54,060 nucleotides of DNA from a virus. Its lineage: Duplodnaviria > Heunggongvirae > Uroviricota > Caudoviricetes. A program made the translations under genes and the position numbers. Every line of letters begins with the position of its first letter. Positions within the stretch are counted from its first letter, which is position 1. This document shows, in pieces, positions 1 to 32,731 of the stretch. The notes below the pieces were generated by a model. That model was not told the DNA's origin. It saw only the letters and a list, made by a program, of their open reading frames with translations, and made no database searches. The stretch is from positions 1 through 54,060 of IMG/VR virus record IMGVR_UViG_3300037280_000066. One strand, written 5' to 3'.

Positions 1-18
1 ATTGAAATTCAGTAAACA

Positions 19-154
19 AGGGATAGTGCAGAATAGAAGTTCTTCACTTTTAATGACGAGGTTGTGGGTTCGAGTCCCATCATGACAGGCTTTACGCTTG
101 TTGTGTAACTCAATTGGCAGAGTACGATAAAACGTCTGTTCGCTTTCCTTCCCC
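19..154 (+). ncRNA. Y-RNA-like unit 1 (YrlA-type permuted tRNA domain with Lys-like CUUUUAA loop)
   Basis: GGGA/TCCC outer stem and GAATAGA/TCTGTTC inner stem. Cargo: TCA-CTTTTAA-TGA, T arm GTGGG-TTCGAGT-CCCAT, closed acceptor CATGACAGGC/GCTTGTTGTG, D arm ACTC-AATTGGCA-GAGT. Confidence 0.85.
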
Positions 155-163
155 TATAAATAT

Positions 164-294
164 TTACTTGGCAGTACAGTTTAGAGTTACTTCTTGCTGA
201 AAAAGATACTAGCTCAATTGGTTAGAGCATCAACAGTGATATGTTGAAGATGGGGTTCGAGTCCTTTTTACTCTCAACGTTTTTCTCCAAGTAA
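164..294 (+). ncRNA. Y-RNA-like unit 2 (D-anticodon-T arms in canonical order, no acceptor stem)
   Basis: TTACTTGG/CCAAGTAA outer stem. D arm GCTC-AATTGGTTA-GAGC, hairpin TCAACA-GTGATA-TGTTGA, T arm GGGG-TTCGAGT-CCTT. Confidence 0.8.
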
Positions 295-301
295 GCAATT
301 T

Positions 302-372
302 TCCGTAATAGTTTAGTGGAAAAACCTGTGCATATGCATACACAGTCTCTAGTTCAAATCTAGATTACGGAG
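302..372 (+). tRNA. tRNA-like gene A with abnormal 10-nt anticodon loop
   Basis: Acceptor TCCGTAA/TTACGGA, D arm GTTT/AAAC, CTGTG-CATATGCATA-CACAG, T arm TCTAG-TTCAAAT-CTAGA; no encoded CCA. Confidence 0.7.
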
Positions 373-374
373 TC

Positions 375-511
375 ATTGGAAAGTGTAGTTAAGGCATACT
401 TCAAAGGGGACTGTGGGTTGTCAGTTCGAATCTGACCCTTCCGATTATCGGCAGGTAGCTCAATGGTAGAGCAATAGTATAAAAAAGAAGCCTTTACGTT
501 TTTCTTCCAAT
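375..511 (+). ncRNA. Y-RNA-like unit 3 (YrlA-type permuted tRNA domain)
   Basis: ATTGGAA/TTCCAAT outer stem. T arm GTCAG-TTCGAAT-CTGAC, closed acceptor CCTTCCGA-TTA-TCGGCAGG, D arm GCTC-AATGGTA-GAGC, residual anticodon stem ACTGT/ATAGT. Confidence 0.85.
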
Positions 512-532
512 ATTAAGTTTAAAGATTAAAAA

Positions 533-670
533 GCATTAGATAGTGTAGATATCAGTTACTTCCATTCAAAGGAAGAGACAGGGGTTCGAATCCCCTCGTC
601 AGGTCTTATCCTGATGTGGACAAGTGGTTAAGTCGCTTAAAATATACTGAAATCGTTTTTCTTCTAATGT
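533..670 (+). ncRNA. Y-RNA-like unit 4 (YrlA-type permuted tRNA domain)
   Basis: GCATTAGA/TCTAATGT outer stem, GATATCAGT/ACTGAAATC inner stem. T arm AGGGG-TTCGAAT-CCCCT, closed acceptor CGTCAGG/CCTGATG, D arm GAC-AAGTGGTTAA-GTC. Confidence 0.85.
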
Positions 671-677
671 TAGATAT

Positions 678-775
678 CCAGAGGTAATTCAATGGCAGAT
701 GCTTGGCACTATGTCAACTTATGTTGATAGCAACAACGCTAGGTGTATGGAGGGTTCGATTCCTTTCCCTTTGGT
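678..775 (+). tRNA. tRNA-like gene B with greatly extended anticodon arm
   Basis: Acceptor CCAGAGG/CCTTTGG, D-like arm, CTTGGC/GCTAGG enclosing a ~30-nt insert with inner hairpin GTCAAC/GTTGAT, T arm GAGGG-TTCGATT-CCTTT. Confidence 0.65.
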
Positions 776-776
776 T

Positions 777-843
777 TTAGAGATAATTCAGTCTGGTAGA
801 ATGCTTGACGGAGTGGTCGTGGGTTCGAATCCCACTCTCTAAT
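777..843 (+). tRNA. tRNA-like gene C with truncated anticodon arm
   Basis: Acceptor TTAGAGA/TCTCTAA, D arm ATTC-AGTCTGGTA-GAAT, mini-arm CTT-GACG-GAG, T arm GTGGG-TTCGAAT-CCCAC. Confidence 0.7.
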
Positions 844-850
844 TGTAAGT

Positions 851-920
851 TCCAGAATAGCCTAATGGTAGGACACCCTCATTACGGAGGGAAACGTAGG
901 TTCGATTCCTGCTTCTGGTG
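851..920 (+). tRNA. tRNA-like gene D with 6-nt anticodon loop
   Basis: Acceptor CCAGAA/TTCTGG (1:72 mismatch), D arm CCT/AGG, CCCTC-ATTACG-GAGGG, T arm GTAGG-TTCGATT-CCTGC. Confidence 0.7.
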
Positions 921-926
921 TGTAAA

Positions 927-1063
927 GAACATTTAGTAGTGTAGATATCAGTTACTTCCATTATCAGGACGAGAAGGTGGTTTAATTCCATCATCTGGCA
1001 TATACCAGATTAGTTTATTGATAAAACACGTAAAATACTGAAATTGATTTTCTCTAAATGTTC
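927..1063 (+). ncRNA. Y-RNA-like unit 5 (permuted tRNA domain, degenerate T and D loops)
   Basis: GAACATTTAG/CTAAATGTTC outer stem; 5' arm identical to unit 4. T arm GGTGG-TTTAATT-CCATC, acceptor ATCTGG/CCAGAT, D arm GTTT/AAAC. Confidence 0.8.
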
Positions 1064-1075
1064 AAAAAGTTTTCA

Positions 1076-1205
1076 ATTGTATAGGACAGTGCAGACTGTG
1101 GTTACTTCGGTTAAATAAAATTCTTATAAAATTTTTAAAGGTGGTTCAAATCCATCGAATCCCTTAAATGGGAACAAACCATAGCCGTTTTACTTCCTGT
1201 ACAAT
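1076..1205 (+). ncRNA. Y-RNA-like unit 6 (anticodon-like arm + T arm + small hairpin)
   Basis: ATTGTATAGGA/TCCTGTACAAT outer stem, GACTGTGGT/ACCATAGCC inner stem. AAAATT-CTTATAA-AATTTT, GGTGG-TTCAAAT-CCATC, TCCC/GGGA. Confidence 0.8.
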
Positions 1206-1220
1206 GATATAAGTTTAAAT

Positions 1221-1287
1221 TTTGGGTAGTGTTAGGTAAAGGGTTACTTCATTGGCGAAAAAACACCCTTCCTGCTTTTCTCCCAAA
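1221..1287 (+). ncRNA. Y-RNA-like unit 7 (minimal, scaffold only)
   Basis: TTTGGG/CCCAAA outer stem; TAGTGTTA..GTTACTTC and GCTTTTCT motifs; ~14-nt cargo. Confidence 0.75.
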
Positions 1288-1303
1288 TAAAGTTTCAAAT
1301 CTT

Positions 1304-1372
1304 GTTTGGTAGTGTATTTGAGAGTTACTTCAACTTTAAATGATAAAATACTCTCAAAGTTTTTCTCCAAAC
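1304..1372 (+). ncRNA. Y-RNA-like unit 8 (minimal, scaffold only)
   Basis: GTTTGG/CCAAAC outer stem; perfect inner stem TTTGAGAGT/ACTCTCAAA; short AT-rich cargo. Confidence 0.78.
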
Positions 1373-1391
1373 TAAAAATTACATAAAACAC

Positions 1392-1538
1392 TTGGGAAGT
1401 GTAGAAGTCGGTTACTTCAAATAAATAATTATAAGAATATGGGTAGCCAATGAGCTACGATTGAATCAAAAGTTACATAAAACAAATTGTAATAAAAGCA
1501 GGGCATAAGCCCAATAGCCGAATTCGATTTTCTCCCAA
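1392..1538 (+). ncRNA. Y-RNA-like unit 9 (non-tRNA, multi-hairpin cargo)
   Basis: TTGGG/CCCAA outer stem, GAAGTCGGT/GCCGAATTC inner stem. Hairpins GTAGC/GCTAC, TTACA/TGTAA, GGGC-ATAA-GCCC. Confidence 0.75.
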
Positions 1539-1554
1539 TAAAATTTATAAACCT

Positions 1555-1640
1555 TTAGGTAGTGTAAGAGTGGGTTACTTCAAAAATTTATTTATAATAT
1601 GAATCTGTGAAAACTTATACCCATTCTGCTTTTCTCCTAA
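1555..1640 (+). ncRNA. Y-RNA-like unit 10 (short AT-rich cargo)
   Basis: TTAGG/CCTAA outer stem; inner stem AGAGTGGGT/ACCCATTCT; both conserved motifs present. Confidence 0.75.
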
Positions 1641-1641
1641 T

Positions 1642-1740
1642 AAAAATTATAATATCATTTTAATAATTGAACAAAAATTGGAAATCTGCAAGTATTTTCA
1701 AGGCTTCTCTAGAGATTATTAAAATGATATTGTAATTTTT
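1642..1740. repeat. 26-bp inverted repeat enclosing 47 nt
   Basis: AAAAATTATAATATCATTTTAATAAT (1642-1667) vs ATTATTAAAATGATATTGTAATTTTT (1715-1740); the one difference is a U-G pair on the + strand. Confidence 0.85.
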
Positions 1741-1750
1741 TAAGTTTAAT

Positions 1751-1896
1751 AAGTCATTTAGTAGTGTAGATTAGAGTTATATCTTTCCCCGTTATATGTG
1801 GGGAAATAGCTTAATTGGTAGAGCGTTGAGTGTGAAAACTCAAAGGTGAGGTTCGAGTCCTTATTTAGTCTCTTATTGATTTTCTCTAAATGATTT
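1751..1896 (+). ncRNA. Y-RNA-like unit 11 (tRNA domain opened at the T-arm/acceptor junction)
   Basis: AAGTCATTTAG/CTAAATGATTT outer stem. Closed acceptor TTTCCCC/GGGGAAA, D arm GCTT-AATTGGTA-GAGC, TTGAGT-GTGAAA-ACTCAA, T arm GTGAGG-TTCGAGT-CCTTAT. Confidence 0.8.
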
Positions 1897-1916
1897 AAAA
1901 ATATGCAAAAAAAGTA

Positions 1917-1946
1917 TTGACAATACATATCCGTATAGGTTATACT
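1917..1946 (+). promoter_or_regulatory. SigA-type promoter of the Ro60 gene
   Basis: TTGACA-N18-TATACT with an upstream A-tract. Confidence 0.7.
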
Positions 1947-2016
1947 AAGAAGGTAAGATATTGAGGAAGTTTTCCTCCCAATAAAAAATTTAATAGTCGA
2001 AAGCGAGGTAATAATA

Positions 2017-3498
2017 ATGTCAAAGTTTAATCAAACAGCAAGAGAAGAAAAGTTACAAACCACTAATAAGTCAGGTGTTCCTGCTTATGCAATGGCTGAG
2101 AAAGACAAGTTAGTAACACAAGTACTTACATCTTTATTCAATGAAAAGAAATACTATGGTGATAACTCAAAAGAGATTATCCAAACAGTAAAATCAATTC
2201 TTGAACATGATGCAAAGTTCATTGCTAACCTAGCCCTATTTGCAAGAAATGAAATGCATTTGAGAACTATTTCACATGTATTAACATCAGAACTTGCAAA
2301 TCATCCAAATGGTAAGCAGTATGCTAGAGCAACAATCAACAAGGTTGTTGAAAGAGTTGATGATATGTCAGAAATCTTGGCTTATTCATTAGACAAATAC
2401 TCAAAGCCTATCGCAAATTCCATGAAGAAAGGTTTAGTAGATGCTTTCTTAAGATTTGATGAATACTCTCTTGCAAAGTACAACAAAGACAGTAAGGAAA
2501 TCAAACTTAAAGATATCCTTTGCTTAACTCACCCAAGACCTACTACTACAGCACAAAGCGATATGTTCAAGAGATTGATGGAAGGTAACCTTGAAGTACC
2601 AAAGACTTGGGAAACTGAGTTGTCTGCTAAGGGTAATACTAAGGCAGTATGGGAAAACTTGATTACTGAAAAGAAACTTGGCTACATGGCTATGATGCGT
2701 AACCTTCGTAACATAATCAAATCAGGAGCTTCGAATATGAATGAAGTTTATTCTTTCTTAGCAAATGAGGAAAGAGTATTAAAGAATAAGCAGTTACCTT
2801 TCAGATATTACTCAGCATACAAAGTGTTGACAAATGAAGGTCTTGCTACTTCAAAGATACTTGATACATTAGAAACTGCTTTAAAGTTAAGTTGTAAAAA
2901 CGTTCAGCCTTTAAGTGGTAAAACACTTATTGCAGTTGATACTTCTGGCTCAATGTCAAGTCCTGTTAGTGCTAAAAGTGATATGACTTGCGTAGAAATT
3001 GGTATACTTATGATGGCAATGGCAAATTACATCTGTGATGATTCAATCTCTGTTGCTTTTGACACTTCATTAAGAGATATCACATTACCTACAAGCAATG
3101 GTATCATATCTAATGCGAAGAGCGTTAGAAACACTGGTGGTGGTACAGATATTACTCTTCCAATACAACACTTGATTAATAAAAACATCAAAGTTGATAG
3201 AATCATTATGTTATCTGATAATGAAATCAACTGTGGTTGGGACTCAGGTAGAAGTGGTGGATGGGGTAGACAATCACAAACAAGCTGTCAGAACTTGGTT
3301 GACCAGTACAGAAAAACAATCAATCCTGATGTATGGGTTCATGCTATTGACTTACAGGGCTACGGCACTCAACAGTTCAAAGGTAAGAATACTAACATCA
3401 TCGCAGGTTGGTCTGAGAAGACTCTGGAATTCATCTCAATGGCTGAAAAAGGCTTTGGCAACATCGTTTCAACTGTAGAAAGTTACTACTTTAAGTAG
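2017..3498 (+). CDS. rsr: Ro60/TROVE-domain RNA-binding protein with C-terminal vWA domain
   Basis: TROVE motifs (FDEYSLAKYN, L.HP.P, TWETELS, LGYMAMMRNLRN, QLPFRYYSAY) followed by vWA MIDAS DTSGSM; 493 aa. Confidence 0.95.
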   Translation: MSKFNQTAREEKLQTTNKSGVPAYAMAEKDKLVTQVLTSLFNEKKYYGDNSKEIIQTVKSILEHDAKFIANLALFARNEMHLRTISHVLTSELANHPNGKQYARATINKVVERVDDMSEILAYSLDKYSKPIANSMKKGLVDAFLRFDEYSLAKYNKDSKEIKLKDILCLTHPRPTTTAQSDMFKRLMEGNLEVPKTWETELSAKGNTKAVWENLITEKKLGYMAMMRNLRNIIKSGASNMNEVYSFLANEERVLKNKQLPFRYYSAYKVLTNEGLATSKILDTLETALKLSCKNVQPLSGKTLIAVDTSGSMSSPVSAKSDMTCVEIGILMMAMANYICDDSISVAFDTSLRDITLPTSNGIISNAKSVRNTGGGTDITLPIQHLINKNIKVDRIIMLSDNEINCGWDSGRSGGWGRQSQTSCQNLVDQYRKTINPDVWVHAIDLQGYGTQQFKGKNTNIIAGWSEKTLEFISMAEKGFGNIVSTVESYYFK

Positions 3499-3520
3499 TA
3501 GTAACTCTACATACAATATA

Positions 3521-3549
3521 AAGAGAACTCGAAAGGGTTCTCTTTTTTA
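3521..3549 (+). terminator. Rho-independent terminator after rsr
   Basis: AAGAGAACTC-GAAA-GGGTTCTCTT followed by a T-run. Confidence 0.85.
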
Positions 3550-12912: not shown

Positions 12913-14313
12913 ATGAATTTTGAAACTAAAAGTATAGATATTAAAATACCAACACCTGTAAGTTATGTGCTAAATGTACTATTTAATAATAATCATAAAG
13001 CATATGTTGTAGGTGGATGTGTCAGAGATAGTATATTAAGAAAGAGTCCTAAAGATTGGGATGTTTGTACATCTGCAACACCAGAAGAAGTTATTGCTAT
13101 GTTCAGGTCTAAAGACTATGCTGTTATTGAAACTGGTCTTAAACATGGTACAGTTACAGCTATGGTTGGTGATATGCCTATAGAAATAACTACTTTTAGA
13201 GTTGATGGTGAATATTCAAATGGTAGATGCCCTGATGATGTAAAATTTGTATCAGACCTTAAGGAAGATTTGAGCAGGAGAGATTTTACAATTAACGCTA
13301 TGGCATATAACTACGCAGAAGGATTAATTGATTTGTTTGATGGTGTTAGTGACTTAGGACAAGGTATTATTCGTTGTGTAGGAAATGCAAATGAACGCTT
13401 TCAGGAAGATGGTTTAAGAATGCTTAGAGCTATACGTTTTTCTGCTAGATTTGGATTTAAGATAGAAGATAACACTTACACAGCAATACAATACAATAAT
13501 GAATTGATTAACAAATGTAGTGCTGAAAGAATTAGGGATGAACTTAGCCAGATTATTATATGTTCTCCTAGTGGACTAAAACAAATGTTTGTAACAGGAT
13601 TATTACAACATATACTGCCAGAACTTGTTAAGACAATGCCCTGCAAACAAAACAATGAATATCATAAATATACTGTAGGAAACCATATTCTTAAGACTAT
13701 GGAATGCATTGATAATGATTTAGCTCTTAGATTAACTATGATGCTTCATGACATTGCTAAACCACCATGTAAGACAAAAGATATACATGGTGTTGACCAT
13801 TTCTATGGTCATAATCAAATGGGAGCAGATATGGCAGTAGAAATTCTAGGTAGATTAAGATATGAAAATCTTATCATTATGAAAGTTAGAGATTTAATAC
13901 TATATCATGATGCAGAGATTCATGACAACATAAAGTCTGTAAGAAGATGGTTAAACAGAATAGGTGAAGAGCGTTTTAGAGAGTTGATTAAGGTTAAGGT
14001 TGCAGATATTTTTGGTCAAAATGAAGACTTCTTCTTTGAAAGAATGAATAAGTTTTTAGAAATTGGTGTATTGATTGATGAAGTTATTGAAAAGAATCAA
14101 TGTTTTAGTAAGAGAGACTTGGCTATCAATGGTAGAGACTTGATGGATGCAGGATATCCACAGGGAAAAATGATTGGTTTTATAATTGATGCTTTGGTTG
14201 ATAAAGTAATTGAAAATCCAGAGTATAATACAAAAGAAAAACTCTTGGAGATTGTGCCAACTATAAGAGGATTTCGTAGATTAACTGGTGTTATAGAGGA
14301 AGGAATGAAATAA
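12913..14313 (+). CDS. cca: tRNA nucleotidyltransferase (CCA-adding class II) with HD domain
   Basis: VGGCVRD, DWD, EITTFR, RRDFTINAMA, EDGLRMLRAIRF, LHDIAK. Confidence 0.9.
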   Translation: MNFETKSIDIKIPTPVSYVLNVLFNNNHKAYVVGGCVRDSILRKSPKDWDVCTSATPEEVIAMFRSKDYAVIETGLKHGTVTAMVGDMPIEITTFRVDGEYSNGRCPDDVKFVSDLKEDLSRRDFTINAMAYNYAEGLIDLFDGVSDLGQGIIRCVGNANERFQEDGLRMLRAIRFSARFGFKIEDNTYTAIQYNNELINKCSAERIRDELSQIIICSPSGLKQMFVTGLLQHILPELVKTMPCKQNNEYHKYTVGNHILKTMECIDNDLALRLTMMLHDIAKPPCKTKDIHGVDHFYGHNQMGADMAVEILGRLRYENLIIMKVRDLILYHDAEIHDNIKSVRRWLNRIGEERFRELIKVKVADIFGQNEDFFFERMNKFLEIGVLIDEVIEKNQCFSKRDLAINGRDLMDAGYPQGKMIGFIIDALVDKVIENPEYNTKEKLLEIVPTIRGFRRLTGVIEEGMK

Positions 14314-24265: not shown

Positions 24266-26002
24266 ATGAGTAAAGAATTTATTTATCCTGCAACATTACT
24301 CTGTGATTTTTACAAAATTTCACACAAAGACCAGTATCCACAGGGAACAGAGATTATCTATTCAACTTGGACACCTAGAATGAGCAGAATTGAGGGAGCT
24401 GATAAGAAATTAGTTGACCTTGTAATTGCTTTTGGATTCCAAGCATTCATTAAAGAATACTTAATGGATTACTTCACTAAGAACTTCTTTTCAAGACCAA
24501 CAGAAGATGTTGTAGCTGAATACAAGAGGGTTATTCAATATACTCTTGGTATCACTAATCCAGATGCTTCACACATCCAAGCATTACATGAACTTGGTTA
24601 TCTTCCATTAAGAATTAAGGCTGTTAAAGAAGGTACTCATATACCTCTTAGATGCCCAATGCTTACAGTTGAAAACACAAAGCCTGAATTTTTTTGGTTA
24701 ACAAACTACATTGAAACTCTTATGTCATGTGTTATGTGGCAACCAACAACAAGTGCTACAATTGCAAATGAATACAGAAAAATGCTTGATTCATATGCAG
24801 AGAAAACTGGTGGAGATTTAGGTGGAGTTCAATTCCAAGGTCATGATTTTAGTATGCGTGGTATGAGTTCACTTGATTCAGCCAAAGCATCAGGAGCAGG
24901 ACATTTGCTATCATTCTCTGGAACAGATACTATTCCTGCTATATTGTACTTAGAAGAGTTTTACAATGCAGATATCACTAAGGAACTTGTAGGAACATCA
25001 ATCCCTGCTACAGAGCATTCAGTAATGTGTGCCTATGGTCAGGATGAATTGGAATCTTATAGGAGAATTATTACAGAGGTTTATCCATCAGGATTTGCTT
25101 CAATCGTATCTGATACATGGGATTTATGGAGTGTATTATATGATGTAATTGGCAAATTGAAGCCTGAAATCATGGCTAGAGATGGTAAAATAGTAGTAAG
25201 ACCAGACTCTGGTGACCCTGTTGATATCATCTGTGGTTCTATCCAACCAATAGAAGACAAACAATTAACATTAGATAATATAGTAGAATGGTTTAACGAT
25301 GAATCATCAACTTATTTCAATGAAAATTGTGATGGTGATGGTTATGTTGATGAAAAAAGTTATACCTGTAAAATTGATGGCAAATACTATAGAGTTGATT
25401 GTCATGCTAATTTTATATCAGAACGTGGTGGTTATTCAGATTCTAAATATTATACCTTAGATGATGTAGAAATTTCATATATTGAGATTGAACGCACATC
25501 TGAACAGAAGGGTGTAATTGAAATCCTTTGGGAAATATTTGGTGGAACTATCACTGCAAAAGGCTTCAAGCAACTTGATTCACACATTGGATGTATTTAT
25601 GGTGATGCCATAACTATTGATAGATGTAGACAAATCAATGAAAGATTGATGGCTAAAGGCTTTGCTTCTACTAATATGGTATATGGTATTGGTTCATTCA
25701 CATACCAATATAACACAAGGGATACCTTTGGATTTGCTTTAAAGAGTACATTTGCTCAGATTAATGGAGTAACTAAGAACTTATTTAAAGACCCTGTAAC
25801 AGACAAAGCAAACTTTAAGAAGTCTCAAACTGGCTTAGTTGTAGTTACGGAGCAGGAAGGTAAAATTACTTATGTTGATGGTTTAACTCTTGAACAAAGA
25901 GATGCTATGAGACTTGTGGACTTACTTGAAGATGTATTCATTGACGGACAGCTATTAAGAAATGAAACATTGGCTGAAATCAGAGCAAAGGTTAATGAAT
26001 AA
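24266..26002 (+). CDS. nadV: Nicotinamide phosphoribosyltransferase-like protein (candidate NARP1 second enzyme)
   Basis: DFYKISH, HDFSMRG, GTDT, ATEHSVM, VSDTWD, RPDSGDP, IYGDAIT, GIGS. Confidence 0.88.
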   Translation: MSKEFIYPATLLCDFYKISHKDQYPQGTEIIYSTWTPRMSRIEGADKKLVDLVIAFGFQAFIKEYLMDYFTKNFFSRPTEDVVAEYKRVIQYTLGITNPDASHIQALHELGYLPLRIKAVKEGTHIPLRCPMLTVENTKPEFFWLTNYIETLMSCVMWQPTTSATIANEYRKMLDSYAEKTGGDLGGVQFQGHDFSMRGMSSLDSAKASGAGHLLSFSGTDTIPAILYLEEFYNADITKELVGTSIPATEHSVMCAYGQDELESYRRIITEVYPSGFASIVSDTWDLWSVLYDVIGKLKPEIMARDGKIVVRPDSGDPVDIICGSIQPIEDKQLTLDNIVEWFNDESSTYFNENCDGDGYVDEKSYTCKIDGKYYRVDCHANFISERGGYSDSKYYTLDDVEISYIEIERTSEQKGVIEILWEIFGGTITAKGFKQLDSHIGCIYGDAITIDRCRQINERLMAKGFASTNMVYGIGSFTYQYNTRDTFGFALKSTFAQINGVTKNLFKDPVTDKANFKKSQTGLVVVTEQEGKITYVDGLTLEQRDAMRLVDLLEDVFIDGQLLRNETLAEIRAKVNE

Positions 26003-26085: not shown

Positions 26086-28272
26086 ATGAGAATATTGGTA
26101 TTAACTCGTGGAGCAATGGGTAGTGGAAAATCAACATTTATCAAGGAGAATTTTCTTGAACAATACACCTTAAGTGCAGACACAATCAGGTTGCTATGCC
26201 AAAGTCCTATATTAAAACCAGATGGTGGTTTAGGTATTAGCCAAAACAATGACAGAAAGGTTTGGACTTTACTATTTGAAATGTTAGAAGAAAGAATGAT
26301 TAGAGGTGAATTTACAGTAATTGATGCCACTAATACAAAAACTTCTGAAATGAACAAATATAAAGCTTTAGCAGAAAAATACAGATTTAAAATTATCTGT
26401 GTGGATTTTACAGATGTAACAATGGAACTTGCTCTTTATAGGAATAAATGTAGAGAAGGTTATAAATTTGTGCCAGAGGATGCTATCAAGAATGCATATT
26501 CAAGATTTGCTACACAGAATGTGCCATCTGGTATCCAAGTAATTAAGCCTGAACAGTTTGAAAACACAATACAATTAAAACCTATCAATCTTTCAGCATA
26601 CACAAAAATTCATCACATTGGAGATATTCATGGATGTTATACTGTCTTGAATGATTACCTTCAAGGAAATTTACATAGTGATGAAATGTACATATTTTTA
26701 GGTGACTTTATTGATAGAGGTATTGAGAATGCAGAGGTTATAAAATTTATGTGTTCTATCATGGATGAACCTAATGTGATAATGTTAGAAGGAAATCATG
26801 AAAGATGGCTATGGTGTTGGGCTAATGATATACCATCTAAGAGTCCTGAATTTGAACATAATACCAAGAAGGAATTGATGGATAAGGGTATTAATAAGAA
26901 ACAAGTGAGAATGTTTTATCGCAAATTAAGGCAGTTAGCATACTATACATACAATGAAAAAATAGTATTAGTAACACATGGAGGACTAAGCACCATACCA
27001 AGTAATCTTACATACATAGCAACAGAGCAATTAATAAAGGGTACTGGTGATTACAAAGACATGGAAGTAACAAATGAGTCATTCTTACATAACACAACTG
27101 AAAATTGCTATCAAATCCATGGTCACAGAAATGTATCTGGCTCTGATATTCAAATTAATGAAAGGTGTTATAATTTAGAAGGTAAGATTGAGTTTGGTGG
27201 ATATTTAAGAGTTGTGACACTTGATGTTAATGGATTCGTAACAATTGAAAAGAAAAATACAATTTTCAATCCTTCTGTACATCAAGTTCAAGAAACAAGA
27301 GCAAATATCACTAAGCAAGTTATGTCAAATAATGATTTTTTGCAAATGTTGAGAAGAAATAAAAACATCAAAGAAAAGCAATTTGGAAATATTTCTTCAT
27401 TTAACTTTACCAGAGAAGTGTTTTATGACAAGATTTGGAATGAGCAAACTATTAAGGCAAGAGGATTATTTTTAAACACAAGCACAGGTGAAATTGTTAT
27501 CAGGTCATATAATAAGTTCTTCAATATAGATGAAAGACCTGAAACAAAGTTGGATAAATTACAGACCACTTTAAACTTCCCTGTTGATGCTTACATAAAG
27601 GAAAATGGTTATCTTGGATTAGTAGGCTATGATTCAGAATCAGACCAGTTAGTAATTGCTTCAAAGAGTTCATTGACAGGTGATTTTAAGGAATGGTTTC
27701 AGCATATTTTCTTTAATACAGTAAGTGCAGAAGATAGGGAAACTCTTAAATTCTTTCTAAAGGAAAATAACTGTTGCTTTGTATTTGAGGTTATAGACCC
27801 TGAGAATGACCCCCACATGATAGAATATGAAAATGCTCATTTAGTATTGTTAGATGTTATATACAGAGAGGTAGAGTTTAGAAAAATGCCTTTCACAGAT
27901 TTAGCCACTATTGCTATGCAGTTTGGTTTAAAATACAAGTTGATATCAAAAACAATAAAGGATTGGGCAGACTTCTACAAGTGGTATAATGACAATGAGC
28001 AAGGTTGGGATGAAACTCTGGAAGGTTATGTAATAGAAGATAAAAATGGATTCATGACAAAAGTAAAGTTGCCTTTCTACCATTTTTGGAAAAGAATGCG
28101 TACCTTAAAGGATGAAGTTGGTAAGAAGGGTTACATAAAGAATACAAGTAGTCTTACAACTCCATTAGCCAATGAGTTTTATGGTTGGGCAAGAGATAAA
28201 TTTAAAGAGACACCCGAACTATTGAATTCAGGCATTATAGCATTAAGAAAAATGTTCTACAATTTCAAATAA
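26086..28272 (+). CDS. Pnkp-type RNA repair enzyme: 5' kinase + metallophosphoesterase + RNA ligase
   Basis: GAMGSGKST/DATN; GDIHG, GDFIDRG, GNHE; ARGLF, KFFN, ligase motif I KENG, EGYVI, KVK. Confidence 0.9.
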   Translation: MRILVLTRGAMGSGKSTFIKENFLEQYTLSADTIRLLCQSPILKPDGGLGISQNNDRKVWTLLFEMLEERMIRGEFTVIDATNTKTSEMNKYKALAEKYRFKIICVDFTDVTMELALYRNKCREGYKFVPEDAIKNAYSRFATQNVPSGIQVIKPEQFENTIQLKPINLSAYTKIHHIGDIHGCYTVLNDYLQGNLHSDEMYIFLGDFIDRGIENAEVIKFMCSIMDEPNVIMLEGNHERWLWCWANDIPSKSPEFEHNTKKELMDKGINKKQVRMFYRKLRQLAYYTYNEKIVLVTHGGLSTIPSNLTYIATEQLIKGTGDYKDMEVTNESFLHNTTENCYQIHGHRNVSGSDIQINERCYNLEGKIEFGGYLRVVTLDVNGFVTIEKKNTIFNPSVHQVQETRANITKQVMSNNDFLQMLRRNKNIKEKQFGNISSFNFTREVFYDKIWNEQTIKARGLFLNTSTGEIVIRSYNKFFNIDERPETKLDKLQTTLNFPVDAYIKENGYLGLVGYDSESDQLVIASKSSLTGDFKEWFQHIFFNTVSAEDRETLKFFLKENNCCFVFEVIDPENDPHMIEYENAHLVLLDVIYREVEFRKMPFTDLATIAMQFGLKYKLISKTIKDWADFYKWYNDNEQGWDETLEGYVIEDKNGFMTKVKLPFYHFWKRMRTLKDEVGKKGYIKNTSSLTTPLANEFYGWARDKFKETPELLNSGIIALRKMFYNFK

Positions 28273-29230: not shown

Positions 29231-30340
29231 ATGGAAAGGCAGTTAGCATCTGTACAAAAGGTGCTAAACATTAGACCTATTCCTAATGCAGATAACATAG
29301 AAGTTGCAGAAGTATTAGGATGGGAATGTATAGTACTAAAAGCAGAAAATGTTCAAGTAGGTGACCTTGTAGTATACATAGAAATTGATTCAATTGTTCC
29401 AGATAGGGCAGAGTTTGAATTTCTAAGAGACAGAAAATTCAGGGTTAGAACAATCAAGTTAAGAAAACAAATAAGTCAAGGATTAGTTTTACCTATTGGA
29501 ACTTTACCAAAAGGTAAGTACAGTGAAGGGCAGGATGTAACAGAAATCTTAGGAATAAGAAAGTATGACCCACAAGCAGACAAAGAAAGAGATATGTGGG
29601 AAGACAAGATAAGAGCAAGCAAGAACCCAATACATAAGTTTTTACTAAGATATCCATGGTACAGGCAGTTTGTAATGAAGCCAAAGAAAGGCAAATTCCC
29701 TTCATTCATTAAGAAGACTGATGAAGATAGAATTCAACTTTTTCCAAGACTTCCTGAGACACAGAAAGATACAATCTTTACTGCAACAGAGAAGCTTGAT
29801 GGGCAATCAGTTACATACTTCTTACAAAGAAATAAAGGTAAACTGAAATGGTTTGAATTTTACAAGAAACCAAGTGATTTTATATTTGGAGTATGCAGTA
29901 GAAATGTTTACCTTGAAAAAGCAGATACCAGTTCATATTGGACAATTGCTAATAACTACAAGATAGAAGATGTATTACATAATCTGTTAGGTAATCAAGA
30001 CTTAATTGTACTGCAAGGTGAAATTATAGGAGAAGGTATTCAGGGGAATAAATACAAGGTTACTGGATATGATTTCTATGCATTTAATCTTATCTTTGGC
30101 ACAGAGTTACAAGGTAGCGTTGAAGCTAAAGATATCCTAGCATATCAAGGTGTGAAGTTTGTTCCTATATTAGATACTAACTTTACTTTAAAGCCAACCA
30201 TTCAAGAGAATGTTGACTATGCACTAGGCAAATCTGTTCTCCTTCCTGTACTTAGAGAAGGTGTTGTAATCAGGAATGAAGCAAAGGGATTAAGTTACAA
30301 GATAATCAATCCTGAATTTCTCCTAAAGAATGATGAATAA
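29231..30340 (+). CDS. ATP-dependent RNA ligase, DRB0094 family
   Basis: N-terminal PIPNADNIE...ISQGL domain; TDEDRIQ, TEKLDG, QGE, REGVV, YKIIN. Confidence 0.88.
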   Translation: MERQLASVQKVLNIRPIPNADNIEVAEVLGWECIVLKAENVQVGDLVVYIEIDSIVPDRAEFEFLRDRKFRVRTIKLRKQISQGLVLPIGTLPKGKYSEGQDVTEILGIRKYDPQADKERDMWEDKIRASKNPIHKFLLRYPWYRQFVMKPKKGKFPSFIKKTDEDRIQLFPRLPETQKDTIFTATEKLDGQSVTYFLQRNKGKLKWFEFYKKPSDFIFGVCSRNVYLEKADTSSYWTIANNYKIEDVLHNLLGNQDLIVLQGEIIGEGIQGNKYKVTGYDFYAFNLIFGTELQGSVEAKDILAYQGVKFVPILDTNFTLKPTIQENVDYALGKSVLLPVLREGVVIRNEAKGLSYKIINPEFLLKNDE

Positions 30341-31507: not shown

Positions 31508-32731
31508 TTGGAAACAAAGAATGCGTTATATCTGGTAAAGGTTGAGCCTAATGCGAATAATAATAAGTATTATCGCATGATAGATAATGGCAATGGAACT
31601 TTTACTGCTCAGTATGGTAGAATTGGTGTTGAGAAGTTTCAGACAGCTACATATTCTATTTCTCAATGGAATAGTAAACTAAATGAAAAACTCAGTAGCA
31701 AAAAAGGTTACATTGACCAAACTAGGTTAGTGGCAGAAACAACTGTAAAGGCAAAGAAGAATAAGGATTACATTGATATTGAATCTGTATCCATTTCTCA
31801 AATTGTTGCTAGATTACAGGCAATGGCTAAACAAGCAATTCAAGATAACTACACAATCTCTTCAAACAAAGTTACACAGGCAATGATTGATGAAGCTCAA
31901 ATTACTCTGAATAACCTCATTCAAACATCAACATTAAAAGATTTCAATAAAGTTTTGGTTGATTTATTCCAAATAATTCCTAGAAAAATGAAGAAGGTTG
32001 CAGATTGTTTAGCAGATAGTGATAAGGATTATGCAAACATTCTTCAAAGAGAGCAAGACTTACTTGATGTTATGAGAGGTCAAGTTATCCAACAGGCAAT
32101 TGTTGAAGAGGAAGTTGAAGAAGATAAGCCATTATCAAATCAGACAATACTTGATGCTATGGGTTTAAGGTTTGAAGAACTTGTCCCTGCTGATGTAGTG
32201 TTAATTAAACAGAACTTGGGTTCAGCTAGTAATAAGTATCATCAAGGTTGGAGAGTTACCAATTTGCGTTCTCAGGAGAGATTTGATAAGTTTATTGCAG
32301 AGAATAAAATTCAAAATAAGAAACTGCTGTGGCATGGTTCAAGGAATGAGAATTGGTGGTCAATTGTTAATACAAGTTTGGTGTTAAGACCAAATGCAGT
32401 CATTAGTGGTAAGATGTTTGGATATGGTATTTACTTTGCACCAAAGGCTGAAAAGTCTCTAGGATACACTTCTTTAAGTGGTTCATATTGGGCAGGTGGC
32501 AATTCCAATTCAGCATTCATGAGTTTGTATGATGTTGCTTATGGCAAAGCATATGATGTACACTCATTTGACAGCAAGTATTATGACTTCAATTATGAGA
32601 AATTACAACAGAATTGCACAGGAGCTAATTGTTTACATGCTCATAGTGGCAATGGAATGTTAAGGAATGATGAAATTATTGTCTACAAGGAAGACCAGTT
32701 GACAATAAAGTACTTAGTAGAATTAAGATAA
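31508..32731 (+). CDS. PARP-family ADP-ribosyltransferase with WGR and helical domains
   Basis: NNNKYY...YGRIG (WGR), helical region with IIPR, catalytic LWHGS, GKMFGYGIYFA..KS.GY, NDEIIVY. Confidence 0.88.
   Translation: METKNALYLVKVEPNANNNKYYRMIDNGNGTFTAQYGRIGVEKFQTATYSISQWNSKLNEKLSSKKGYIDQTRLVAETTVKAKKNKDYIDIESVSISQIVARLQAMAKQAIQDNYTISSNKVTQAMIDEAQITLNNLIQTSTLKDFNKVLVDLFQIIPRKMKKVADCLADSDKDYANILQREQDLLDVMRGQVIQQAIVEEEVEEDKPLSNQTILDAMGLRFEELVPADVVLIKQNLGSASNKYHQGWRVTNLRSQERFDKFIAENKIQNKKLLWHGSRNENWWSIVNTSLVLRPNAVISGKMFGYGIYFAPKAEKSLGYTSLSGSYWAGGNSNSAFMSLYDVAYGKAYDVHSFDSKYYDFNYEKLQQNCTGANCLHAHSGNGMLRNDEIIVYKEDQLTIKYLVELR

What the first reader, a model, noticed from the sequence alone, without database searches (positions are those of the whole stretch)
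44..1032. Permuted units rebuild a complete anticodon arm across the graft point; unit 1 shows a tRNA-Lys(UUU) loop
Seen: in units 1, 4 and 5 the 5-nt 3' strand of the anticodon stem pairs in two pieces, partly with the end of the conserved CTTC motif and partly with bases after the D arm. Unit 1: TGACG with TCA + CG. Unit 4: GGAAG with CC + CTT. Unit 5: GGACG with CC + CGT. Each closes a 7-nt loop (CTTTTAA, ATTCAAA, ATTATCA), so the scaffold is grafted into the 5' strand of the anticodon stem and a whole tRNA shape is kept. Known: in described YrlA RNAs the Rsr stem replaces the anticodon arm, and tRNA-Lys(UUU) is the target of the anticodon nucleases PrrC and PARIS AriB. Inference: Ro60-held, non-chargeable tRNA mimics acting as decoys or sensors for anti-phage anticodon nucleases. 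By geometry the unit 4 triplet is UCA, but it may be a slipped Glu loop.
Basis: partly seen in the sequence, partly recalled or inferred. Interest (0 to 1): 0.85.

Follow-up and report, generated by a model that had tools for sequence, protein, structure and literature searches.

The report
Phage Y RNAs with anticodon arms
Three small RNAs encoded beside a phage Ro60 gene are rearranged tRNA look-alikes that keep a complete, tRNA-style anticodon arm; the same design recurs in many phage and bacterial Ro60 loci, although published work describes these RNAs as lacking an anticodon loop.

Summary
Window units 1, 4 and 5 are YrlA-type Y RNAs lying upstream of a phage Rsr/Ro60 gene. Each is a circularly permuted tRNA: T arm, then a closed acceptor hairpin, then the D arm. 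The two bases after the D arm (tRNA positions 27-28) pair with the two bases 5' of a true variable loop (42-43). A 3-bp hairpin with a 7-nt loop stacks directly on that pair, giving a 5-bp anticodon stem.

The scaffold enters between positions 28 and 29 in every case.

Among 147 distinct homologous units from phages and bacteria:
- 131 keep the 27-28:42-43 pairs, with all four Watson-Crick types.
- 74 have the perfect composite stem with a 7-nt loop, against 3.9 expected by chance.
- In those loops, U33 is present in 95%, a purine at 37 in 97%, and A38 in 84%.

Chen et al. 2014 saw this hairpin but called it the variable ("V") arm. Wang et al. [quoted passage not shown] The decoy idea is plausible, and was already suggested for YrlA in 2020, but it is untested, and the design is not specific to phages.

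The parts
20..153 (+). Unit 1: a whole Y-RNA-like unit, made of outer helix, conserved internal loop, inner helix, junction motif and permuted tRNA cargo
   Evidence: RNAfold; Rfam YrlA 29.3 bits, below the 69-bit cut-off; own model R1 65.3 bits
44..58 (+). Unit 1 anticodon-arm mimic: positions 29-31 (44-46), 7-nt loop (47-53, Lys-UUU type), 39-41 (54-56) and 42-43 (57-58)
   Evidence: Sequence; family covariation; loop identical to the phage tRNA-Lys loop
59..126 (+). Unit 1 tRNA body: variable loop 59-63, T arm 64-80, closed acceptor hairpin 81-105, D arm 108-123, N26 at 124, and 27-28 at 125-126 pairing with 57-58
   Evidence: U8-A14 and 15:48 Levitt covariation across the family
533..670 (+). 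Unit 4: a whole Y-RNA-like unit
   Evidence: RNAfold; R1 74.3 bits
561..575 (+). Unit 4 anticodon-arm mimic: 29-31 (561-563), loop 564-570 (triplet UCA), 39-41 (571-573) and 42-43 (574-575). Positions 27-28 lie at 636-637.
   Evidence: A fully local 5-bp alternative also exists in this unit.
927..1063 (+). Unit 5: a whole Y-RNA-like unit
   Evidence: RNAfold; R1 62.7 bits; the constrained fold gives a clean cloverleaf
957..971 (+). Unit 5 anticodon-arm mimic: 29-31 (957-959), loop 960-966 (triplet UAU, with C at 37), 39-41 (967-969) and 42-43 (970-971). Positions 27-28 lie at 1029-1030.
   Evidence: Between paralogous units 4 and 5, position 42 changes A to C while position 28 changes T to G, a compensatory change. 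The local CTTCC strand does not change.
378..510 (+). Unit 3: a permuted tRNA-like unit without the hairpin. It keeps the 27-28:42-43 pairs and resembles the classical YrlA form.
   Evidence: Rfam YrlA 34.4 bits; in the R1 alignment the hairpin is absent
1117..1135 (+). Unit 6: a fully local 6-bp anticodon-like arm with a 7-nt loop (triplet UAU), followed by a T arm and with no D arm
   Evidence: Sequence; partial Rfam tRNA hit at 1099-1156
2017..3498 (+). Rsr/Ro60 gene, with its own promoter-like site at 1917-1946 and a terminator at 3520-3545
   Evidence: Pfam TROVE 2.5e-32 and vWA_Ro60 2.6e-11
26086..28272 (+). Fusion of kinase, phosphoesterase and Rnl1-type RNA ligase (tRNA-repair type). 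This is context, not part of the RNA.
   Evidence: Pfam AAA_33, Metallophos and RNA_lig_T4_1

Best explanation
SHOWN: window 1-2000 holds 11 units of a 12-unit array; the twelfth, unit 0, lies at the other end of the contig. These are Y RNAs of the YrlA class, upstream of a phage Rsr/Ro60 gene. In units 1, 4 and 5, and in unit 0, the cargo is a circularly permuted tRNA.
- The acceptor stem is closed by a loop, so the RNA has no aminoacylatable end.
- The Rsr-binding scaffold enters between tRNA positions 28 and 29.
- Positions 27-28 (after the D arm) pair with 42-43, and a 3-bp hairpin (29-31/39-41) stacks on them with no linker. The result is a 5-bp anticodon stem capped by a 7-nt loop with U33, a purine at 37 and A38.
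- A separate 4-5-nt variable loop with a covarying 15:48 Levitt pair shows that the hairpin sits in the anticodon position, not the variable-arm position.
- The design is shared by phage and bacterial Rsr loci.

INFERRED: the Rsr ring displays a stable, uncharged, complete tRNA look-alike to proteins that read the anticodon arm. The most likely roles are bait or competitive inhibitor for anticodon-loop nucleases, and/or a tether bringing tRNA repair or decay enzymes to Rsr. Different units offer different loops.
For: Structure:
- Rsr identity.
- Shared scaffold across 12 units.
- Covariation of 27-28:42-43 and 31:39 in 29 phage units: 100% paired with 3-4 Watson-Crick types, against 35-49% for the whole structure when slid.
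- 131 of 147 units pair in the exact register, against 30-51 when slid.
- 74 of 147 have a perfect stem with a 7-nt loop, against 3.9 expected.
- Loop signature: U33 in 70/74, purine 37 in 72/74, A38 in 62/74.
- Levitt 15:48 pair is G:C in 93 and A:U in 44 of 147.
- In an independent bacterial set, helix 27-28:42-43 is 94% paired with four pair types.
- Units 4 and 5 differ by a compensatory change at 42:28.
- Acceptor-closing loops are often stable tetraloops, while this hairpin keeps a 7-nt U-turn-type loop.

Function (indirect):
- The phage also encodes a kinase-phosphatase-Rnl1 fusion, a second RNA ligase and a CCA-adding enzyme.
- rtcB lies next to rsr/yrlA in two Clostridium relatives.
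- The commonest loop triplets are GUU, UUU, GCU and UGU. PARIS AriB cleaves Lys-UUU, Thr-UGU and Asn-GUU (PMC12409363).
- A phage Ro60 homologue counters a defence system (PMC11482910).
- YrlA was proposed as a competitive inhibitor of an anticodon nuclease (PMC7790460).
Against: - Single-sequence thermodynamic folding does not choose the split stem. It costs 2.9-5.9 kcal/mol more than the MFE fold, and units 1 and 4 have local alternatives.
- RNAalifold on the MAFFT alignment did not predict the 2-bp or the 3-bp helix.
- About half of the homologous units lack a perfect hairpin.
- No probing, expression or binding data could be obtained.
- For function: the design also occurs in bacterial chromosomes, so it is not a phage-specific counter-defence.
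- Positions 36-38 are almost always UAA or GGA. That could reflect a contact with Rsr or a tertiary contact rather than mimicry of particular tRNAs.
- The stems of unit 1 and of the phage tRNA-Lys differ; only the loop matches.
- The phage has no RtcB.
Confidence: 0.6

Rival explanations
1. The hairpin is only the 'V' element described in 2014. On this view it is a structural brace of the three-way junction, or a contact point for Rsr, and its resemblance to an anticodon loop has no functional meaning.
For: - Chen et al. 2014 (PMC4201824) named it V.
- Positions 36-38 are restricted to UAA or GGA, which is narrower than in real tRNAs of the same phage.
- The local stem is only 3 bp.
- The adjacent junction motif is highly conserved, as expected for a protein-binding or tertiary site.
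Against: - The hairpin lies 5' of 42-43, and a separate variable loop with the 15:48 Levitt pair is present, so it is not in the variable-arm position.
- Loop length is fixed at 7, with U33 and a purine at 37.
- Where mere closure is needed, in the acceptor hairpin, tetraloops are used.
- Triplets 34-35 differ between units of one locus.
Confidence: 0.22
2. Only a local hairpin forms. On this view the conserved CTTC motif pairs with the bases after the loop, the bases after the D arm stay single-stranded, and no composite anticodon stem exists.
For: - MFE folds of units 1 and 4 choose local pairing.
- In 19 of 32 phage units the two scaffold bases 5' of position 29 could pair with 42-43, mostly through T-A and T.G.
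Against: - The scaffold bases are invariant while 42-43 vary.
- The CG, TG, CA and AC types cannot pair locally, yet always match the bases after N26.
- Unit 5 would carry a mismatch in the local model and none in the split model.
Confidence: 0.05
3. The units are precursors of working split or permuted tRNAs. On this view RNase P and a 3' nuclease open the acceptor loop, CCA is added, and the two-piece molecule is charged and decodes.
For: [quoted passage not shown]
- The phage encodes a CCA-adding enzyme.
- The loops look like real anticodon loops.
Against: - Acceptor-like stems vary from 5 to 11 bp and are capped by tetraloops.
- The phage already has 26 ordinary tRNAs, including Lys-UUU, Ile-UAU and Thr-UGU.
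- Unit 4 would read UGA.
- A bulky Rsr-bound stem at 28/29 is hard to fit on a ribosome (inference).
Confidence: 0.04

Closest known systems
YrlA (Rfam RF02553), the Rsr-bound tRNA-like Y RNA of S. Typhimurium and M. smegmatis
   Same: It is encoded next to Rsr. It has the same permuted order (T arm, closed acceptor hairpin, D arm), the same tRNA tertiary pairs, and a conserved YUAY upstream of the T arm, which here lies within the junction motif.
   Different: The solved Salmonella RNA has a continuous stem in place of the anticodon arm and 'lacks the anticodon loop' (10.1101/312249). Here only 2 bp come from the long-range strand, and a 3-bp hairpin with a 7-nt loop completes an anticodon arm. 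Scores are below Rfam's cut-off (34 and 29 bits against 69). There are 12 units instead of 1-2.
'V' stem-loop of YrlA RNAs (Chen et al. 2014, PMC4201824)
   Same: It is probably the very same hairpin: a less-conserved stem-loop just upstream of the T arm, preceded by YUAY. A Bxz1-type mycobacteriophage, of the type aligned in that paper, has it.
   Different: There it is equated with the tRNA variable arm. Here the covarying 27-28:42-43 pairs and a separate variable loop place it at positions 29-41, which is the anticodon arm.
D. radiodurans Yrn1
   Same: It is a Y RNA that can be drawn with a potential 5-bp 'anticodon arm' (PMC4201824).
   Different: Its loop has 6 nt, its orientation is different, and it has no full D arm.
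Circularly permuted and split tRNA genes (Cyanidioschyzon merolae; Nanoarchaeum), cited from general knowledge
   Same: The tRNA sequence is rearranged so that the ends lie inside the cloverleaf.
   Different: Those are processed into working tRNAs. Here the acceptor end stays closed and the break carries a protein-binding stem.
Phage T5 tRNA variants that neutralise PARIS (PMC11464382, PMC12409363)
   Same: They are phage-encoded tRNA-shaped RNAs whose anticodon-arm sequence matters in a conflict with a tRNA nuclease, and the Lys/Thr/Asn loop types are involved.
   Different: Those are functional replacement tRNAs, not Ro60-bound non-chargeable mimics. No nuclease interaction is shown here.

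Membership tests
YrlA-class Y RNA | Encoded next to an Rsr/Ro60 (TROVE) gene | tested here: met
   The array ends about 120 nt upstream of rsr (2017-3498), which matches TROVE and vWA_Ro60. Homologous units lie at Rsr loci in 34 IMG/VR phage contigs and 80 bacterial contigs.
YrlA-class Y RNA | Permuted tRNA-like module (T arm, closed acceptor hairpin, D arm) with tRNA tertiary pairs | tested here: met
   The U8-A14 pair is possible in 147/147, though the parser required U8. The 15:48 pair covaries: G:C in 93 and A:U in 44.
YrlA-class Y RNA | Reaches the Rfam RF02553 gathering score (69 bits) | tested here: not met
   The best scores are 34.4 bits (unit 3) and 29.3 bits (unit 1). The model has no place for the hairpin, and the scaffold is divergent.
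YrlA-class Y RNA | 5' GNCGAAN0-1G motif thought to bind Rsr | tested here: inconclusive
   All units carry a conserved AGTGYAG-type motif opposite a T-rich 3' strand. Bacteroidota relatives have GYCGTAG. The motif is similar but not identical.
YrlA-class Y RNA | Physically bound and stabilised by Rsr | not testable with these tools
   This needs co-immunoprecipitation or EMSA.
Canonical tRNA | 5-bp anticodon stem with a 7-nt loop, U33 and a purine at 37 | tested here: met
   The composite stem and loop statistics meet this. Unit 5 has C at position 37.
Canonical tRNA | Free 5' end and 3' CCA-accepting end on a 7-bp acceptor stem | tested here: not met
   The acceptor-like stem is closed by a loop and is 5-11 bp long. 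ARAGORN does not call units 1, 4 or 5.
Decoy or inhibitor of anticodon nucleases | Binds or inhibits a tRNA-cleaving defence nuclease | not testable with these tools
   Only circumstantial evidence exists: loop types and repair genes (PMC12409363; PMC7790460).

The most novel reading that the evidence does not exclude
Y-RNA arrays at Ro60 genes may be panels of anticodon-arm baits. Each unit would present a different, correctly shaped but untranslatable anticodon loop on the Ro60 ring. This would soak up or report tRNA-directed nucleases and modifiers, giving phages, and the bacteria that carry the same RNAs, a programmable shield or alarm for the tRNA pool.
Probability: 0.2. Interest if true: 0.85.

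Novelty: new variant of a known kind. Interest (0 to 1): 0.65.

Why it matters
Bacterial and phage tRNA mimics such as YrlA, tmRNA and the newer tLRNA families are described as lacking an anticodon domain. These results indicate that most YrlA-type RNAs of Clostridia, Bacteroidota and many phages do carry a complete anticodon arm. This includes cultivable phages such as Bxz1-type mycobacteriophages, Bacillus phage G and Xanthomonas phage Usaquen. The arm was hidden by a strand break at position 28/29 and was previously labelled a variable arm.

This changes what the unknown effector of the Ro60-YrlA particle is likely to recognise, namely the anticodon arm. It also makes the long-open question of YrlA function directly testable with anticodon nucleases, tRNA-modifying enzymes and RNA-repair ligases. 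Finally, it links Ro60 to the current picture of tRNA-centred phage-host conflict.

Tried and rejected
- blastn of the array against 50,697 phage records found no match.
- My first regex for whole units was too strict: it found 3 of the 12 units in the phage's own array.
- Single-sequence MFE folding prefers local alternatives. The split stem costs 2.9-5.9 kcal/mol more.
- RNAalifold on the MAFFT alignment found the T, acceptor and D helices but not the short helices. The 29-30 columns are out of register between subtypes.
- The covariance model also mis-registers TCC/TCA-type stems, so its count for pair 29:41 is an underestimate.
- I asked whether unit 1 copies the phage tRNA-Lys arm. Only the loop and the variable loop match.
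- RtcB is absent from the phage.
- I considered a pseudoknot between loop positions 36-38 and the junction motif to explain the UAA/GGA classes. I set it aside as sterically unlikely and did not test it.
- A comparison of hairpin frequency in phages against bacteria was dropped, because the IMG/VR set was fetched with a spacing pattern that favours hairpin-bearing units.
- A 2026 preprint on three other families of bacterial tRNA mimics does not cover this RNA.

Full report
WHAT IS THERE

The window is the first 54 kb of a 182,060-bp IMG/VR phage contig whose two ends overlap by about 128 nt. All long ORFs are on the + strand and GC is about 32%. ORF 2017-3498 is an Rsr/Ro60 protein (TROVE 2.5e-32, vWA_Ro60 2.6e-11). 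It has its own promoter-like site and terminator.

Upstream lie eleven units, and a twelfth lies at the other contig end. All share one scaffold:
- a covarying outer helix;
- a conserved internal loop;
- a covarying inner helix;
- a conserved 8-nt junction motif ending in CTTC.

Rfam gives only sub-threshold YrlA hits, 34.4 and 29.3 bits against a 69-bit cut-off. The phage has 26 ordinary tRNA genes elsewhere in its genome.

THE OBSERVATION

Each has, in order:
- the junction motif;
- a 3-bp hairpin with a 7-nt loop;
- two further bases;
- a 4-5-nt variable loop;
- a T arm;
- an acceptor-like hairpin closed by a loop;
- two bases (positions 8-9);
- a D arm;
- one base (N26);
- two bases complementary to the two that follow the hairpin.

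Units 4 and 5 are close paralogues. Position 42 changes from A to C while the base after the D arm changes from T to G. The local CTTCC strand stays the same, so this is a compensatory change that only the split model explains.

IS IT MORE THAN CHANCE?

I retrieved relatives in two independent ways.
- A DNA pattern (junction motif, gap, T-loop) scanned over IMG/VR. Of the returned loci, 34 carried an Rsr gene by tblastn.
- An Rsr protein profile scanned over one genome per prokaryotic species. This returned 80 loci, mostly from Clostridia (up to 60% identity) and Bacteroidota.

Nine named phages were fetched through their Rsr genes.

In a MAFFT alignment of 29 phage units, the 42:28 pair is A-U 14, C-G 8, G-C 4 and U-A 3, with none unpaired. 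The 31:39 pair is A-U 15, C-G 9 and U-A 5. Sliding the partner columns drops pairing of the whole 12-pair structure to 35-49%. Five rows whose D arm was doubtful were left out of this alignment. In the unfiltered phage parse the figure was 28 of 32.

A broader parser required only the scaffold motif and the T-acceptor-D order. It found 147 distinct units:
- 131 pair 27-28 with 42-43 in the exact register, against 30-51 in slid registers and 52+-5 in shuffles.
- 74 have a perfect composite 5-bp stem with a 7-nt loop, against 3.9 expected. Loops of 4-6 or 8-10 nt occur only at background level.

A covariance model built from the phage alignment found 124 matches (123 distinct) in the bacterial loci. 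All are on the Rsr strand. Helix 27-28:42-43 is 94% paired there, with all four Watson-Crick types at both pairs. That alignment is fitted to the model, so its counts lean towards the structure.

ANTICODON ARM OR VARIABLE ARM?

The base directly 5' of the T stem covaries with D-loop position 15 as the Levitt pair: G:C in 93 and A:U in 44 of 147. The 4-5 nt before the T stem are therefore the true variable loop. The 42-43 bases and the hairpin lie beyond it, at tRNA positions 29-43.

The loops carry the anticodon-loop signature:
- U33 in 70 of 74;
- a purine at 37 in 72 of 74;
- A38 in 62 of 74;
- a pyrimidine at 32 in 58 of 74.

Positions 34-35 vary freely, and 33 different triplets were seen. 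In contrast, the loops closing the acceptor hairpin are often stable tetraloops. This argues that the 7-nt loop is selected for its shape.

The graft point is uniform, between 28 and 29. The third base after N26 does not covary with position 41.

LIMITS OF THE STRUCTURAL EVIDENCE

The evidence is comparative.
- Nearest-neighbour folding of single units prefers local alternatives by 2.9-5.9 kcal/mol.
- RNAalifold did not recover the short helices.
- About half of the homologous units, and unit 3 of this window, lack a perfect hairpin while keeping the 27-28:42-43 pairs.
- No expression or probing data were available.

WHAT WAS ALREADY KNOWN

Chen et al. 2014 (PMC4201824) found YrlA RNAs next to Rsr in more than 250 bacteria and phages. 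[quoted passage not shown] They also noted a conserved YUAY that 'begins the V loop'. Here that YUAY lies inside the junction motif.

Mycobacteriophage Catera (Bxz1 type), Bacillus phage G and Xanthomonas phage Usaquen all show the composite arm. The sequences were therefore public.

Wang et al. 2018 (10.1101/312249) solved the Salmonella tRNA-like domain and wrote that 'YrlA lacks the anticodon loop'.

In eight searches of the paper library I found no paper that reads the hairpin as an anticodon arm. The 2020 Annual Review by Sim et al. could not be read.

FUNCTION

Nothing is shown here. The points in favour of a role in conflicts over tRNA are these:
- The phage encodes a kinase-phosphoesterase-Rnl1 fusion, a second RNA ligase and a CCA-adding enzyme.
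- rtcB lies beside rsr in two Clostridium relatives, matching the known Rsr-YrlA-RtcB operons that are induced by cleaved tRNAs (PMC7790460).
- The commonest loops are of the Asn-GUU, Lys-UUU, Ser-GCU and Thr-UGU types. Lys-UUU, Thr-UGU and Asn-GUU are the targets of PARIS AriB, which reads U36-A-A-U (PMC12409363).
- A phage Ro60 homologue counters a defence system (PMC11482910).
- Hughes et al. 2020 had already suggested that YrlA could be a competitive inhibitor of an anticodon nuclease.

The points against a phage-specific decoy are these:
- The design is just as common in bacterial chromosomes.
- Positions 36-38 are nearly always UAA or GGA. This is narrower than in the phage's real tRNAs and could be a protein or tertiary contact.
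- Only the loop of unit 1 matches the phage tRNA-Lys.

VERDICT

It re-reads a known element of a known RNA family, so I class it as a new variant of a known kind.

My odds are roughly:
- structure: 0.9;
- bait, inhibitor or tether for anticodon-arm-reading proteins: 0.3-0.4;
- purely structural brace: 0.2;
- precursor of a working split tRNA: below 0.05.

Noticed in passing
window 1-128 and genome 181,932-182,060 (L003:1447-1573): The contig ends repeat each other over about 128 nt, with one A more or less in a short run. The record is therefore probably circular or terminally redundant. A twelfth unit (unit 0, L003:1240-1370, Thr-UGU-type loop, one mismatch in the stem) and a strong promoter-like site (L003:1394-1425) precede unit 1.
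   Followed up: partly
window 1117-1135 (unit 6): Unit 6 has a fully local 6-bp arm with a 7-nt loop of the Ile-UAU type, followed by a T arm but no D arm. This is a third way of mounting an anticodon-like arm on the same scaffold.
   Followed up: partly
window 1959-1983: The rsr 5' UTR holds a small hairpin whose 3' strand resembles the 3' scaffold motif of the units. It could be an Rsr operator or a relic unit.
   Followed up: no
window 301-374, 673-775, 777-843, 851-920: There are four free-standing tRNA-like genes with good acceptor and T arms but abnormal anticodon arms: a 10-nt loop, a 32-nt insertion, a truncated arm and a 6-nt loop. ARAGORN reports three 'tRNA-???' calls in the window, two of them among these four genes (301-374 and 850-921); the third (202-275) lies in unit 2. 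These genes might serve as RNase P/Z processing signals for the array.
   Followed up: partly
window 12913-14313, 24266-26002, 26086-28272, 29231-30340, 31508-32731: This stretch contains a CCA-adding enzyme with an HD domain, a NAMPT-like enzyme, a kinase-phosphoesterase-Rnl1 fusion, an Rnl2-like ligase with an OB domain, and a WGR-PARP-like protein. Together they form a dense block of RNA-repair and NAD-related counter-defence genes.
   Followed up: partly
family-wide: Loop positions 36-38 fall into two classes: U-A-A (about 60%) and G-G-A (about 20%). From general knowledge, these are the sequence contexts required for t6A37 and for TrmD m1G37. The skew towards U36 far exceeds that in real tRNA sets.
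   Followed up: partly
L256 (Clostridium intestinale), L260 (Clostridium lundense): rtcB lies directly beside rsr in both species. In C. lundense the Y RNA units sit between rtcB and rsr. The closest Rsr relatives of the phage protein are clostridial (up to 60% identity), which suggests a host among the Clostridia.
   Followed up: partly
L297 (Rapidithrix thailandica), L065, L300: Other Rsr loci also carry arrays of 4-8 scaffold units. The 12-unit array here is therefore at the large end of a continuum rather than unique.
   Followed up: partly
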